DNA of 64,000 nucleotides from IMG/VR virus record IMGVR_UViG_2737471833_000002, one strand, 5' to 3'. The first letter of the stretch is position 1; each line of letters starts with the position of its first letter. This DNA is from a virus. Lineage: Duplodnaviria; Heunggongvirae; Uroviricota; Caudoviricetes. The position numbers were made by a program. This document shows positions 1 through 3,000 of this stretch, in pieces.

Positions 1-3000
1 ATCCAGGCGATCTACGACGGTTCAACTAAACGTATCTATATCAATGCCAGCGCGCGGCAGGCAGAGGATATGCTCGCGCTTATGCGTAAATCTCTGGGTT
101 CTCTTCCTGTTGTGCCCCTAAGTGTTGAAAATCAAATTGAGTTAACGCTGACCGACTGGGTGCGTGATGGTAGTGCTCCGCAGGGATTTCAAATGGGGGA
201 TGCGGCAGAACTTAAGGCAGTGCTTGAGGATGGCGGTATTGCCCGAGTGAAAAAGCAGGACTTGGGAAGTGATGAAATATCCACACACCTGGAAGCTGGC
301 AAGCTCGTCACTAAGTTGGCACTCGACTGGCAGAACCGCATTAAATTTACACTGGACCATAACTTCAGCCTTACCAGCGTCAAATTTGCGGATGAATTGC
401 TTGAGCAGAACGCTGATATTGATAGTGAAGATGTTGCGCAGCGACTGGACGCAGATTTCTTCCTGTTGACCAGTGAAATTTCGTGCCTGGTTGATGCTCT
501 GGTAAATGCCCTTGGCGGAGAGGCTAAGCAGTGAAAGAGCTGTGCTACGGATCTGTTTGCAGTGGAATTGAAGCCGCGAGTATTGCCTGGGAACCGTTGG
601 GTATGCGTCCGGCGTGGTTTGCTGAAATCGAGCCTTTTCCATCTGCCGTTCTTGCGCTCCGCTGGCCCCATGTCGCCAACCTTGGCGACATGACAAAACT
701 TGCCAAAAAAGTCTTGGCTGGGGAAATCGAATCCCCTGACGTGCTCGTCGGGGGAACACCATGTTTTACCGCGGGGCATATGGTTCTTTGTAAAAATGGT
801 TATAAACCAATAGAAGATGTTTGCCCTGGCGATTACGTAGTCAGTCATCTCGGGCGGTTACAACAAGTAAAAAGAGTTGGTTCAAAAATAGCTAATACGG
901 GGTTACTTAATGCCGTTGGGCAGCCTTTAGGTATAAGAACAACCAATGACCATCCCTTCCTGGCTGTTCGGTGGAAAGCCCAAAACACCCGGAAAAATGG
1001 CACATATTTTAAGAGAGAGTTGTTGTCTGAACCGGAATGGCGAGCAGCATGTGATATGCCGGGATATCAATGGTGCGCTCTAACTAATTTCAATATTGCA
1101 TCTCCAGATATTTGTTCTCGGTTCTTGTCTGAAGAACAGGCTATGTATCTTGCGGGCGCTTATGTAGGCGATGGATATATTAGGAGATGGAGAGGTAAAT
1201 CTAAGAAGGCGGTTGTTTTTGGCATAAATTGCCAGAAATTGAGAAAGTTTCATTGCCACATACCAGAAAACATGTTTTCCGTGGCAAGCGAAATCCGAGG
1301 GAGCATCAAAGTAACCTTGAATGATACGTGTTATGCCAATTGGCTTAATGAACATTTTGGCGAGTTAAGCCATGCTAAACGTATCCCTGCATGGGTGATG
1401 TCGCATCCATTGCGTCATGTGTTTTTACAAGGCTATCTTGATACTGATGGGACACCAAGTGGTAAAGCGGGATTTAGAATTAATAGTGTTAGTCCTGCGC
1501 TTGCTTGGGGCGTTGCGGGGTTGTCACAGACTTGTGGTTATGTTTCTTCGGTCAGCTTTATTGAAGTTGAGCCCAAAAAAGTGATCGAGGATCGCGTGGT
1601 AAATCAACGGGATTATTATCAGGTAACAATCTGCCCGCAGAAATTGTCACGTAAATCAAGATTGGCTCATGGAATGCTTTTACGAACAGTCAAAGAGTTT
1701 AAATCGGTAGGCCTAGATACTGTATACAACATAGAAGTCGAAGGTGATCATTCCTATATCCTCAATGGTGCGGTGGTCCATAACTGTCAGGCATTCAGTA
1801 TCGCGGGATTACGTGGTGGGCTTGATGATGAGCGTGGCGCGCTAACTTTAAAGTATGTGGAGCTTGCAAATGCAATTGACGACAAACGGGCTGAGTCATT
1901 TCTCAAACCAGCCGTTATCGTCTGGGAAAATGTCCCAGGAGTCTTGTCATTGGCAGATAACGCCTTCGGATGTTTCCTTGCCGGATTGGCTGGAGAAGAT
2001 GTGCCATTTGAACCAGGTGATCGACCTGAATCAGGAAAAAGCAACGCGTTCTGGCGGTGGGATGGCAAAACCGGTTGCCATGTTCCAAAGTGGCCGCAGT
2101 GTGGTTGTATTTATGGACCGCAGCGAAAGGTGGCCTGGAGAATCCTTGATGCCCAATACTTCGGAGTGGCACAACGACGCCGACGCGTGTTTGTTGTCGC
2201 AAGTGCTCGAACAGACCTCGATCCCGCAACGGTACTTTTTGAGTTCGAAGGCGTGCGCCGGAATATTGCGCCGAGCCGAAAAAAGAAGGAAATCGCTTCC
2301 GCCATTATTGCAAATGGCGCTGCAATCAGTGGCGAAAGCCTAAATCCATGCCTACACGCTGGCATGTCTCCCGGTATGAAATCGACGAAAGCCGTAAACG
2401 GTTTCAGGATGGCGGCATTTGGGGAATATATTGACGATGAAACCGCATCGACAGTAAAGGCAAGAGATTTTAAAGATGCCACTGACCTTGCCGTTTTTAG
2501 CAGCACAGGAGCAGGTTTTTGGTCAGAAGGGCATGGTACATTGCGGGCACGTGAGCAAGAAAGCCATGAGCATCTTGTTACATTGGCTTTTCCTGAGCGT
2601 ATGAGCGGTACACAACATGCTGCAACTAAGAATACTTCACCATCTCTAATGGCTAAAAATCCAACAGCTGTTTGCTATGAAGTAAGAAACGCAGAAGTAG
2701 CTGTCCGCCGTCTTACCCCTGTCGAATGTGAAAGGCTGCAAGGTTTTCCTGATGGGCATACGTTGATCCCGACGGAAAAGCGTAAAAAAGTTAATTCAGA
2801 TGAACTGGCATATCTCCGCAATCACTATCCAGATTTAAGCGAAGAAGAGGCCGCGATGCTTGCAGCTGACGGACCGCGTTACAAAGCGATCGGCAATAGT
2901 ATGGCAATACCAGTAATGCGCTGGATTGGCGATCGGATTACTAAGGCCGTATGTCGGCAGAAAGAAGGAAGTGAAACAAAAGAGCGAAAAGTTAAACCAG

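What the first reader, a model, noticed from the sequence alone, without database searches (positions are those of the whole stretch)
762..1784. LAGLIDADG intein splitting motif IV of the Dmt C5-cytosine methyltransferase
The 1095-aa Dmt ORF contains a 341-aa in-frame insert that starts with Cys right after GGTP and ends with His-Asn followed by Cys (CQAFSIAG). Removing it rebuilds the canonical motif IV GGTPCQAFSIAG and leaves 754 aa, the length I recall for intein-free P1 Dmt. The insert carries two LAGLIDADG-like motifs (LAGAYVGDGYI, LQGYLDTDGT), so it is probably an active or recently active homing element. I do not recall an intein described in P1-family Dmt, and the enzyme would be inactive until splicing.
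Basis: partly seen in the sequence, partly recalled or inferred. Interest (0 to 1): 0.7.

Follow-up and report, generated by a model that had tools for sequence, protein, structure and literature searches.

The report
Homing intein inside phage P1-type Dmt methyltransferase
The DNA methyltransferase gene of this P1-like phage-plasmid is interrupted, just before its catalytic cysteine, by a complete self-splicing protein element (an intein with a homing endonuclease); this is a normal example of a known kind of selfish element, but I found no description of it in phage P1 relatives.

Summary
ORF 531-3818 encodes a 1095-aa Dmt. Residues 78-418 (nt 762-1784) are an in-frame 341-aa insert, GGTP|C…HN|CQAFSIAG, which is absent from reference P1 Dmt (754 aa).

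The insert is a canonical class-1 intein with a LAGLIDADG homing endonuclease:
- **Splicing residues:** Cys1, block B T61-x-x-H64, His340-Asn341 and +1 Cys are all present.
- **Endonuclease motifs:** both LAGLIDADG motifs keep their acidic residues.
- **Structure:** an AlphaFold model (pLDDT 93) matches PI-SceI, VMA inteins, PI-PfuI and PI-PkoII.

The +1 Cys aligns with the catalytic Cys81 of M.HhaI. Only the C5-cytosine half therefore has to wait for splicing.

The element belongs to a very large intein family that occupies this same motif IV site in C5 methyltransferases of many bacteria.

Among P1-like plasmids it sits in 133 of about 494 dmt genes, and it occurs in 152 of 5426 complete E. 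coli genomes and in one laboratory P1vir stock. It is less diverse than its flanks. Identical copies lie in backbones that differ by 2-3%, and flank haplotypes are mosaic. This fits homing, although endonuclease activity is not shown.

I found no paper describing it. Verdict: real, a new member of a known kind, of moderate interest.

The parts
531..3818 (+). dmt precursor ORF: 1095 aa, 121.6 kDa, a C5-cytosine MTase plus Dam N6-adenine MTase fusion interrupted by the intein
   Evidence: It is 99.4% identical to dmt of phage RCS47.
531..761 (+). N-extein, residues 1-77, containing C5-MTase motif I and ending in GGTP
762..1784 (+). Intein: 341 aa, 38.3 kDa, G+C 0.43 against 0.55 and 0.48 in the two exteins
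762..800 (+). Intein block A, CFTAGHMVLCKNG. Cys1 is the N-terminal splicing nucleophile.
   Evidence: C1, F2, G5 and G13 are invariant across 14 homologues. All 155 full-length relatives start with Cys.
942..953 (+). Intein block B, T61-N-D-H64 (TxxH)
   Evidence: T61 and H64 are invariant in alignment A2; codons were read.
1149..1175 (+). First LAGLIDADG motif, LAGAYVGDG, with putative catalytic Asp137
   Evidence: Pfam LAGLIDADG_3 and Hom_end region
1377..1391 (+). Endonuclease block D, K206-R-I-P-A (conserved Lys and Pro)
   Evidence: K206 and P209 are nearly invariant in A2.
1425..1451 (+). Second LAGLIDADG motif, LQGYLDTDG, with putative catalytic Asp229
   Evidence: Pfam LAGLIDADG_3 covers intein residues 221-282.
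1722..1784 (+). Intein blocks F and G, VYNIEVEGDHSYILNGAVVHN, with penultimate His340 and terminal Asn341
   Evidence: NCBIfam intein_Cterm; phmmer match to the Spl DnaX mini-intein C-terminus; N341 is invariant.
1785..1787 (+). +1 Cys (Cys419). It is both the C-extein splicing nucleophile and the motif IV catalytic cysteine of the C5 MTase.
   Evidence: In the virtual spliced product it aligns with Cys81 of M.HhaI in ...GFPCQAFS.... 150 of 155 relatives have +1 Cys.
1785..3029 (+). C-extein, part 1: the rest of the C5-MTase (motif IV CQAFS, ENV, QRRRR, a variable target-recognition region, GNS)
3030..3818 (+). C-extein, part 2: Dam-type N6-adenine MTase domain, not interrupted
   Evidence: Pfam MethyltransfD12 covers residues 834-1066 at E 2e-56. 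NCBIfam dam scores 248.8 bits.

Best explanation
Nucleotides 762-1784 encode a class-1 intein with an embedded LAGLIDADG homing endonuclease. It is inserted in the C5-cytosine methyltransferase half of the P1-type bifunctional methyltransferase Dmt, between Pro77 and the motif IV catalytic cysteine. The gene is translated as a 121.6-kDa precursor. Splicing is inferred to follow the standard class-1 chemistry. Cys1 makes an N-S acyl shift. The +1 Cys attacks the resulting thioester. Asn341 cyclises to release the intein, and an S-N shift restores a peptide bond. The products would be the 754-aa, 83.4-kDa Dmt with an intact GGTPCQAFSIAG motif and a free 38.3-kDa intein. Because the +1 Cys is also the methyltransferase nucleophile and the catalytic loop is split, C5 methylation should need splicing. 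The Dam domain, which lies entirely in the C-extein, should not. At the DNA level the free intein, or the precursor, is inferred to cut intein-less dmt alleles around GG(T/A)AC(G/A)CC(T/A)|TGTCAGGCATTC when two P1-like elements meet in one cell. Repair from the intein-bearing allele then copies the intein together with short stretches of flank. What is shown: the insertion, all sequence and fold hallmarks, the family at the same site, and the population pattern. What is inferred: splicing, cleavage and homing.
For: (1) Presence/absence polymorphism at one exact site. Reference P1 Dmt lacks precisely these 341 residues. In PLSDB, 361 records have an uninterrupted junction and 133 carry the insert.

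(2) All class-1 hallmarks are present: Cys1, T61xxH64, His340-Asn341 and +1 Cys. They are invariant or nearly so in 14 homologues and in 155 cluster representatives, where 155 have Cys1, 136 end in HN and 150 have +1 Cys.

(3) Profile hits: LAGLIDADG_3, Hint_2 and intein_Cterm all score above their cut-offs.

(4) Structure: the AlphaFold model has pLDDT 93.4 and pTM 0.90. Its 16 best Foldseek matches are endonuclease-bearing inteins: PI-SceI, TliVMA, PhoVMA, PI-PfuI and PI-PkoII, at E 9e-17 to 5e-9.

(5) Removing the insert raises the PF00145 score from 103.5 to 127.3 bits and aligns the +1 Cys with M.HhaI Cys81.

(6) Foreign composition: intein G+C is 0.43, against 0.55 and 0.48 in the exteins.

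(7) Integrity and constraint. All 12 copies examined are open and indel-free, and 126 of 133 plasmid copies are full length. pN/pS is 0.33 overall (P=0.004) and 0.15 in the splicing domain (P=0.006).

(8) Mobility signature. Intein diversity is 0.8%, against 1.8-4.0% in the flanks. Identical inteins (0/1023) sit in backbones that differ at 11/500, 3/231 and 13/480 flanking positions. The intein occurs in dmt alleles of 1003, 1013, 1095 and 1148 aa with different target-recognition regions. Flank haplotypes switch at different distances from the insertion point.
Against: No experiment shows splicing or cleavage. Pfam Intein_splicing is below its cut-off (21.8 against 35.8 bits) and Hint_2 is only at threshold. 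The endonuclease domain alone is not demonstrably constrained: pN/pS is 0.48 with P=0.10 on 19 sites. P1-like plasmids recombine often, so mosaic flanks and low intein diversity could arise without endonuclease-driven homing. C5 methylation by P1 Dmt is itself only 'perhaps' in the P1 annotation, so selection for splicing is not guaranteed. All six intein-less alleles sampled differ from the intein-bearing flank at position -1 (CCT against CCA), and five of them also differ at positions -4 and -7. They may therefore be poor targets.
Confidence: 0.82

Rival explanations
1. A splicing-competent intein whose endonuclease is already inactive or decaying. Its present distribution in P1-like plasmids would reflect one old acquisition, vertical descent and ordinary homologous recombination between co-resident P1-like elements, not ongoing homing.
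For: pN/pS in the endonuclease domain is 0.48 and not significantly below neutrality, with 12 of 15 non-synonymous polymorphisms falling there. Occupancy is intermediate, about 27%. Every sampled empty site differs from the intein-bearing flank next to the insertion point. P1-like genomes are visibly mosaic.
Against: Both LAGLIDADG acidic residues, the block D Lys and block H are intact. No stop codon or indel occurs in the 12 copies read, and 126 of 133 copies are full length. Identical inteins are flanked on both sides by 2-3% diverged sequence, with exchange tracts centred on the intein. That is what co-conversion predicts.
Confidence: 0.3
2. A non-splicing relic. The insert permanently disrupts the C5 half, and the 1095-aa protein works only as a Dam methylase. 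The C5 function is dispensable for P1.
For: The P1 annotation calls C5 activity only possible. Copies disrupted by insertion sequences exist, so the gene can be lost. The Dam domain is intact and independent.
Against: All splicing residues are conserved, and the splicing domain has the lowest pN/pS, 0.15 with P=0.006. All C5 motifs of the exteins are intact and match M.HhaI and PF00145 after virtual splicing. The same intein family is kept at this site in about 140 diverged C5 methyltransferase clusters.
Confidence: 0.06
3. Not an intein but a regular or domesticated domain of this methyltransferase family, for example a nuclease module of a fused restriction-modification enzyme.
For: Many C5 methyltransferases carry it at the same place, which could be misread as a conserved domain.
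Against: Closely related alleles, 98% identical in the exteins, lack it precisely. It has the splice-junction residues and a HINT plus LAGLIDADG fold. A mini-intein version without the endonuclease domain occupies the same site in P0025.
Confidence: 0.02

Closest known systems
Endonuclease-bearing class-1 inteins with solved structures: PI-SceI (Sce VMA1), Tli/Pho VMA inteins, PI-PfuI, PI-PkoII
   Same: HINT splicing domain interrupted by a two-motif LAGLIDADG endonuclease. They share Cys1, TxxH, HN and a +1 nucleophile. They are the best structural matches, at Foldseek E 9e-17 to 5e-9, and there is a weak sequence match to PI-PkoII.
   Different: Only 10-16% sequence identity. The host protein is a DNA methyltransferase, not a V-ATPase, ribonucleotide reductase or polymerase. 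At 341 aa it is smaller than PI-SceI (454 aa) and seems to lack a large extra DNA-recognition region. This last point is inferred from length only.
Inteins at motif IV (GG[TS]P|CQxxSxAG) of other bacterial and phage C5-cytosine methyltransferases. Examples: Mannheimia haemolytica 'Hint domain-containing protein' or 'DOD-type homing endonuclease domain-containing protein' (P0012), Metarhizobium album (L022), and many metagenomic proteins.
   Same: Same insertion site, same length class (about 330-360 aa) and same blocks. Identity to the window's intein is 28-57%. P0029 is even a Dmt-like C5+Dam fusion, with a 57% identical intein and exteins about 48% identical.
   Different: The nearest relative outside the P1 group is only 57% identical. 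The P1-group copies form a tight cluster, at most 1.5% divergent. None of these relatives appears to have been studied; they carry only automatic names.
Inteins in actinobacteriophage DNA methylases: N6/N4 type (Kelley et al. 2016, PMC5050341; PMC9957025) and C-5 type (bioRxiv 10.1101/2025.01.02.630785)
   Same: Phage-borne methylase genes invaded by LAGLIDADG inteins, with patchy distribution and evidence of transfer between divergent alleles.
   Different: The hosts are Actinobacteria and the phages are unrelated. The well-described cases are in N6/N4 methylases at other sites. For the C-5 cases the preprint text I read gives no insertion site, so I could not establish whether they belong to the same family.

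Membership tests
Intein (class 1) | In-frame insertion at a conserved site of a host protein, absent from close homologues, whose removal restores the host motif | tested here: met
   Reference P1 Dmt (754 aa) lacks exactly residues 78-418. Removal restores GGTPCQAFSIAG and raises the PF00145 score.
Intein (class 1) | Block A: N-terminal Cys, Ser or Thr nucleophile | tested here: met
   Cys1 (nt 762-764). It is invariant in 14 homologues and in 155 representatives.
Intein (class 1) | Block B: TxxH | tested here: met
   T61-N-D-H64 (nt 942-953); T61 and H64 are invariant.
Intein (class 1) | Blocks F and G: penultimate His, terminal Asn, +1 Cys, Ser or Thr | tested here: met
   His340-Asn341|Cys. 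NCBIfam intein_Cterm scores 25.9-28.9 bits against a cut-off of 15.6.
Intein (class 1) | HINT fold of the splicing domain | tested here: met
   This rests on a predicted structure only. The AlphaFold model has pLDDT 93.4, and its best PDB matches are full-length inteins. Mini-inteins such as Prp8 also match, at about E 1e-3. Pfam Hint_2 is at threshold and Intein_splicing is below it.
Intein (class 1) | Protein splicing: precursor converted to ligated exteins plus free intein | not testable with these tools
   Needs expression followed by SDS-PAGE or mass spectrometry. Predicted masses are 121.6 kDa giving 83.4 + 38.3 kDa.
LAGLIDADG (DOD) homing endonuclease, intein-borne | Two LAGLIDADG motifs, each ending in an acidic residue followed by Gly | tested here: met
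   LAGAYVGD137G and LQGYLDTD229G. G132, G138, G224 and G230 are invariant. Pfam LAGLIDADG_3 scores 34.5 bits against a cut-off of 22.5.
LAGLIDADG (DOD) homing endonuclease, intein-borne | alpha-beta-beta-alpha-beta-beta-alpha core fold duplicated in one chain | tested here: met
   The model's residues ~124-300 match I-SceI, I-DmoI, I-OnuI and I-AniI family structures at E 1e-4 to 5e-3. Predicted structure only.
LAGLIDADG (DOD) homing endonuclease, intein-borne | Site-specific cleavage of the intein-less allele, and homing | tested here: inconclusive
   Indirect support comes from low intein diversity, identical inteins in diverged backbones and mosaic flanks.
C5-cytosine DNA methyltransferase (host protein, PF00145) | Motifs I, IV (PCQ), VI (ENV), VIII (QRR) and X (GNS) in order | tested here: met
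   The virtual spliced product matches PF00145 at 127.3 bits and M.HhaI, including PCQAFS, ENV, QRRRR and the RLTPxE and GNS regions.

The most novel reading that the evidence does not exclude
The intein is more than a passenger. Splicing uses Cys1 and a +1 Cys that is also the methyltransferase nucleophile, while the Dam half needs no splicing. The element could therefore act as a conditional switch, for example one sensitive to redox state, metal or temperature. Such a switch would delay or gate cytosine methylation of P1 DNA independently of adenine methylation. That would affect how the phage copes with host restriction systems, including those that attack methylated DNA. It would also be the first natural intein and homing system that can be studied directly in E. 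coli with P1 genetics.
Probability: 0.08. Interest if true: 0.7.

Novelty: new member of a known kind. Interest (0 to 1): 0.4.

Why it matters
E. coli is usually treated as free of native inteins and serves as the neutral host for intein work. Yet this intein is present in 152 of 5426 complete E. coli genomes and in roughly a quarter of the P1-like plasmids in PLSDB. It is also in at least one laboratory P1vir stock (OP279344).

All of these genes are annotated simply as 'Dam family methyltransferase'. Their protein length and domain content are therefore misread.

The element offers a ready natural system for studying splicing, homing and co-conversion with standard P1 and E. coli genetics. 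It also bears on whether, and when, P1-type phages methylate cytosines.

It does not reveal a new mechanism.

Tried and rejected
**Literature.** Nine usable full-text searches found no description of an intein in P1-family Dmt. They combined intein with P1, RCS47, dmt, P1-like, punavirus, phage-plasmid, cytosine methyltransferase, DNA methylase, cytosine-5 and cytosine-specific. One search failed because one term was too short. The only co-mention of intein and RCS47 (PMC12282955) is unrelated. The P1-like plasmid survey PMC9603915 does not mention dmt.

**Searches that gave little.**
- PHROGs returned only an intein-bearing NrdD family and nothing for methylases.
- The search for related loci failed with the 14-sequence alignment because it had no conserved stretch. 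With a narrower alignment it found only 16 loci, because it depends on exact peptide patterns.
- Pfam Intein_splicing and Hom_end are below threshold, so fold evidence was used instead.
- The listing of cluster members gave almost no organism names for the closest relatives outside the P1 group.

**Failed calculation.** My comparison of 'the last 780 nt' of the Dam domain was invalid. The sampled dmt alleles do not all end at equivalent positions (one is 1003 aa), so the window was misregistered. I do not use that number.

**Readings considered and rejected.**
- A group I intron or free-standing endonuclease gene. The insert is in frame, has no stop codon and carries HINT blocks at both ends.
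- A conserved Dmt domain. It is absent from 361 plasmid alleles.
- An assembly artefact. The same sequence is in 133 plasmids and 3 phage genomes.
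Full report
**1. The observation**

The window holds one long ORF at 531-3818 on the + strand, with a GTG start, encoding 1095 aa. At nt 762 a TGT (Cys78) follows ...VLVGGTP. At nt 1779-1784 the codons CAT AAC (His-Asn) are followed by TGT CAG GCA TTC AGT... (CQAFSIAG). LAGAYVGDG is at intein residues 130-138 (nt 1149-1175) and LQGYLDTDG at residues 222-230 (nt 1425-1451).

The dmt gene of reference phage P1 (NC_005856) is 2265 nt, or 754 aa. It is annotated as a bifunctional methyltransferase that methylates GATC adenines 'and perhaps' C5 of cytosine. 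Aligned with the window's protein, it shows one gap of exactly 341 columns between ...GTP and CQAFS.... The only detail to add is that reference P1 has Trp where the window and the other sampled alleles have the first Gly of GGTP.

**2. What the insert is**

Profile searches on the 341 residues gave these results:
- LAGLIDADG_3: 34.5 bits, cut-off 22.5
- Hint_2: 28.5 bits, cut-off 28.4
- NCBIfam intein_Cterm: 25.9-28.9 bits, cut-off 15.6
- Intein_splicing and Hom_end: weak, sub-threshold hits

Sequence search of the PDB finds the C-terminus of the Spl DnaX mini-intein and the endonuclease core of PI-PkoII.

An alignment with 13 homologues shows the following columns invariant or nearly so:
- Cys1, Phe2 and Gly5 (block A)
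- Thr61 and His64 (block B, TxxH)
- the glycines of both LAGLIDADG motifs
- Lys206 and Pro209 (block D)
- Ser244 (block H)
- Asn341 and the +1 Cys

The acidic residues that end each LAGLIDADG motif, Asp137 and Asp229, are present in the window.

AlphaFold2 with that alignment gave a confident model, with mean pLDDT 93.4 and pTM 0.90. Its 16 best Foldseek matches in the PDB are all endonuclease-bearing inteins: PI-SceI, the Tli and Pho VMA inteins, PI-PfuI and PI-PkoII, at E 9e-17 to 5e-9. These are followed by free LAGLIDADG enzymes (I-SceI, I-DmoI, I-OnuI, I-AniI) and mini-inteins. By every feature that can be tested in silico, this is a class-1 intein with a LAGLIDADG homing endonuclease.

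**3. Where it sits in the host protein**

Joining residues 1-77 to 419-1095 gives a 754-aa protein. Three things follow:
- The N-terminal stretch of the joined protein (residues 8-134) now matches PF00145 as one contiguous segment, and the whole-protein score rises from 103.5 to 127.3 bits.
- The sequence aligns with M.HhaI through ...dvlvGGTPCQAFSiaG / ...dilcaGFPCQAFSisG.
- By count, the +1 Cys falls on M.HhaI Cys81.

From established knowledge of C5 methyltransferases, that cysteine is the nucleophile that attacks C6 of the target cytosine. The intein therefore uses the enzyme's own catalytic cysteine as its C-extein nucleophile and splits the catalytic loop.

The Dam-type domain lies wholly downstream in the C-extein. 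Pfam MethyltransfD12 covers residues 834-1066 at E 2e-56, and NCBIfam dam scores 248.8 bits. The statement 'inactive until splicing' should therefore be limited to the C5 activity. Predicted masses are 121.6 kDa for the precursor, 83.4 kDa for spliced Dmt and 38.3 kDa for the intein.

**4. A large family at the same site**

A word-indexed search found the same intein at 48-52% identity in other C5 methyltransferases, among them Mannheimia haemolytica proteins. These carry the automatic names 'Hint domain-containing protein' and 'DOD-type homing endonuclease domain-containing protein'. More distant copies (28-34%) occur in other C5 methyltransferases, including a Pseudonocardia metagenome-assembled genome.

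The exhaustive HMMER search of 1.84 billion cluster representatives returned 4418 proteins at E<=1e-3 and 193 at E<=1e-30. Of the 155 full-length matches I could examine:
- all begin with Cys
- 136 end in His-Asn
- 150 have +1 Cys
- about 140 sit at GG[TS]P|CQxxSxAG or a close variant, which is the same motif IV site

One homologue (P0025) is a mini-intein at that site. One (P0029) is a Dmt-like C5+Dam fusion, with a 57% identical intein and exteins about 48% identical. A pattern scan of species-representative genomes added Metarhizobium album (49%, same site) and an uncultured Clostridia bacterium (29%, same site). This is an old and widespread insertion-site family of inteins, and the P1 copy is one member.

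**5. Distribution among P1 relatives**

Three phage records carry the full insert at 99% identity or more: RCS47, vB_EcoM-Ro157c2YLVW and a P1 isolate, OP279344. Reference P1, P7, SJ46 and the other phage records found by the search lack it. According to its source paper, OP279344 is a laboratory P1vir stock (bioRxiv 10.1101/2022.09.09.507302).

In PLSDB the intein occurs in 133 plasmids of Escherichia, Salmonella and Shigella, and 126 of those copies are full length. A junction probe found 500 records with the dmt region. Of these, 361 were uninterrupted and 133 were split into two places. Occupancy is therefore about 27%.

Among complete E. coli genomes, 152 of 5426 carry it, mostly on plasmids. 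All of these genes are annotated only as Dam-family or DNA methyltransferases.

**6. Evidence bearing on mobility**

- **Composition.** The intein has G+C 0.43, against 0.55 and 0.48 for the exteins.
- **Integrity.** All 12 copies read (9 distinct sequences) are open and indel-free.
- **Diversity.** Mean pairwise diversity is 0.8% in the intein. It is 2.1% in upstream hrdC, 4.0% in the N-extein and 1.8% in the first 480 nt of the C-extein.
- **Identical inteins in diverged backbones.** L002 and L015 have identical inteins (0/1023) but differ at 11/500, 3/231 and 13/480 flanking positions. The window and RCS47 show the same pattern, with 0/1023 against 14/500, 1/231 and 9/480.
- **Several host alleles.** The intein sits in dmt alleles of 1003, 1013, 1095 and 1148 aa with different target-recognition regions.
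- **Mosaic flanks.** All 10 intein-bearing alleles read have ACA CCA just before the intein. All six empty alleles have CCT, and five of them have GGT ACG CCT. The point at which an intein-bearing allele switches to the 'empty-type' haplotype varies. It is under 24 nt downstream in L015, and more than 66 nt in the others sampled.
- **No precise-excision product.** No uninterrupted plasmid junction comes within one mismatch of the 60-nt virtual excision product. The best are 96.7% identical.

Taken together, these patterns are what endonuclease-driven homing with co-conversion produces. Frequent ordinary recombination among mosaic P1-like plasmids could also give them.

The polymorphism counts add a caveat. 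pN/pS is 0.33 overall (P=0.004 against neutrality) and 0.15 in the splicing domain (P=0.006). In the endonuclease domain it is 0.48, with P=0.10. Splicing is therefore clearly under selection, but the small sample neither proves nor excludes continued endonuclease function.

**7. Mechanism proposed**

Translation gives the precursor. Standard class-1 splicing through Cys1, the +1 Cys and Asn341 restores Dmt and frees the intein. The endonuclease cuts empty dmt alleles when two P1-like elements share a cell, for example on superinfection, in mixed lytic growth, or when compatible P1 and P7 types co-reside. Repair then copies the intein together with adjacent extein bases.

Shown here: the anatomy, the family and the population pattern. 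Inferred: splicing, cleavage and homing.

I put about 0.95 on 'this is an intein' and about 0.8 on 'it splices'. I put about 0.5 on 'the endonuclease is still active'.

**8. Comparison with what is known, and novelty**

Inteins in phage DNA methylases are documented for actinobacteriophages. Kelley et al. 2016 describe them in N6/N4 methylases (PMC5050341). One family is analysed in detail in PMC9957025. A 2025 preprint lists C-5 methylases (IPR001525) among intein hosts (10.1101/2025.01.02.630785).

I found no paper that mentions an intein in Dmt of P1 or its relatives. The library does not cover subscription journals or the old InBase registry, so an earlier mention cannot be excluded. Automatic annotation has already labelled fragments of this very protein 'Hint domain-containing'.

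The finding is therefore a new member of a known kind. It is noteworthy mainly because it lives in E. coli's best-known transducing phage family and is widely mis-annotated.

**9. Verdict**

It is mechanistically ordinary and apparently undescribed for this phage group, and it is easy to test. Interest 0.4.

Noticed in passing
OP279344.1 (locus L002 1501-4542): A laboratory P1vir stock sequenced for an Argonaute study carries the same Dmt intein, with 5 nt differences over 1023. It sits in a 1013-aa dmt allele with a different, shorter target-recognition region. The reference P1 genomes (AF234172, NC_005856) have no intein, so laboratory 'P1' stocks differ at this locus.
   Followed up: partly
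window 747-761 and 1785-1850, compared with L003-L008: The base just before the insertion point separates all 10 intein-bearing alleles read (CCA) from all 6 empty alleles (CCT). Five of the empty alleles also differ at -4 and -7. Present-day empty sites might be poor targets for the endonuclease, which could explain the stable occupancy of about 27%.
   Followed up: partly
window 55447-56559 (- strand): A 370-aa Gram-negative porin gene (Pfam Porin_1, E 1e-147) lies in a segment (about 55213-57303) that is absent from the closest plasmid I compared, pS51_2. It is a cargo gene on a P1-like backbone.
   Followed up: no
window 39854-43425: Where pS51_2 has its type III restriction-modification genes (mod and res), the window has three other genes. 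They are an antirepressor-like gene (40856-41974, ANT plus ORF6N domains), a helix-turn-helix protein (42106-42579) and a DUF3944 / Ubiq_cyt_C_chap-like protein (42595-43347). This is a variable locus, possibly an exchanged defence or immunity module.
   Followed up: no
window 4491-4566, 4569-4644, 6285-6360: Three tRNA genes lie downstream of dmt: Asn-GTT, Thr-TGT and Met-CAT. Asn and Thr lie in the same relative position as in P1.
   Followed up: no
L016 (CP142546.1) and L017 (NZ_CP070875.1): A few plasmid copies are broken. In CP142546 the intein match stops at nt 813 and resumes elsewhere in the record. In pTB91P2 only the first 76 nt remain, next to IS1. Dmt is therefore dispensable for plasmid maintenance.
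   Followed up: partly
L003 1501-1731 (reference P1): Reference P1 Dmt reads VLVWGTPCQ (TGG), where every other allele sampled reads GGTPCQ. This is a private substitution three residues before the catalytic Cys, and it might bear on whether reference P1's C5 activity is intact.
   Followed up: no
P0025 and P0009 (homologues): P0025 has a mini-intein with no endonuclease domain at the same motif IV site. P0009 has Asn in place of the second LAGLIDADG Asp, and Asn-Asn in place of His-Asn at its C-terminus. Different stages of the homing cycle are thus visible within the family.
   Followed up: no
E. coli complete genomes: Five of the 153 intein copies are on chromosomes, for example in CP168949 and CP007394. 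One genome has two copies. These may be integrated or co-resident P1-like elements, the setting needed for homing.
   Followed up: no
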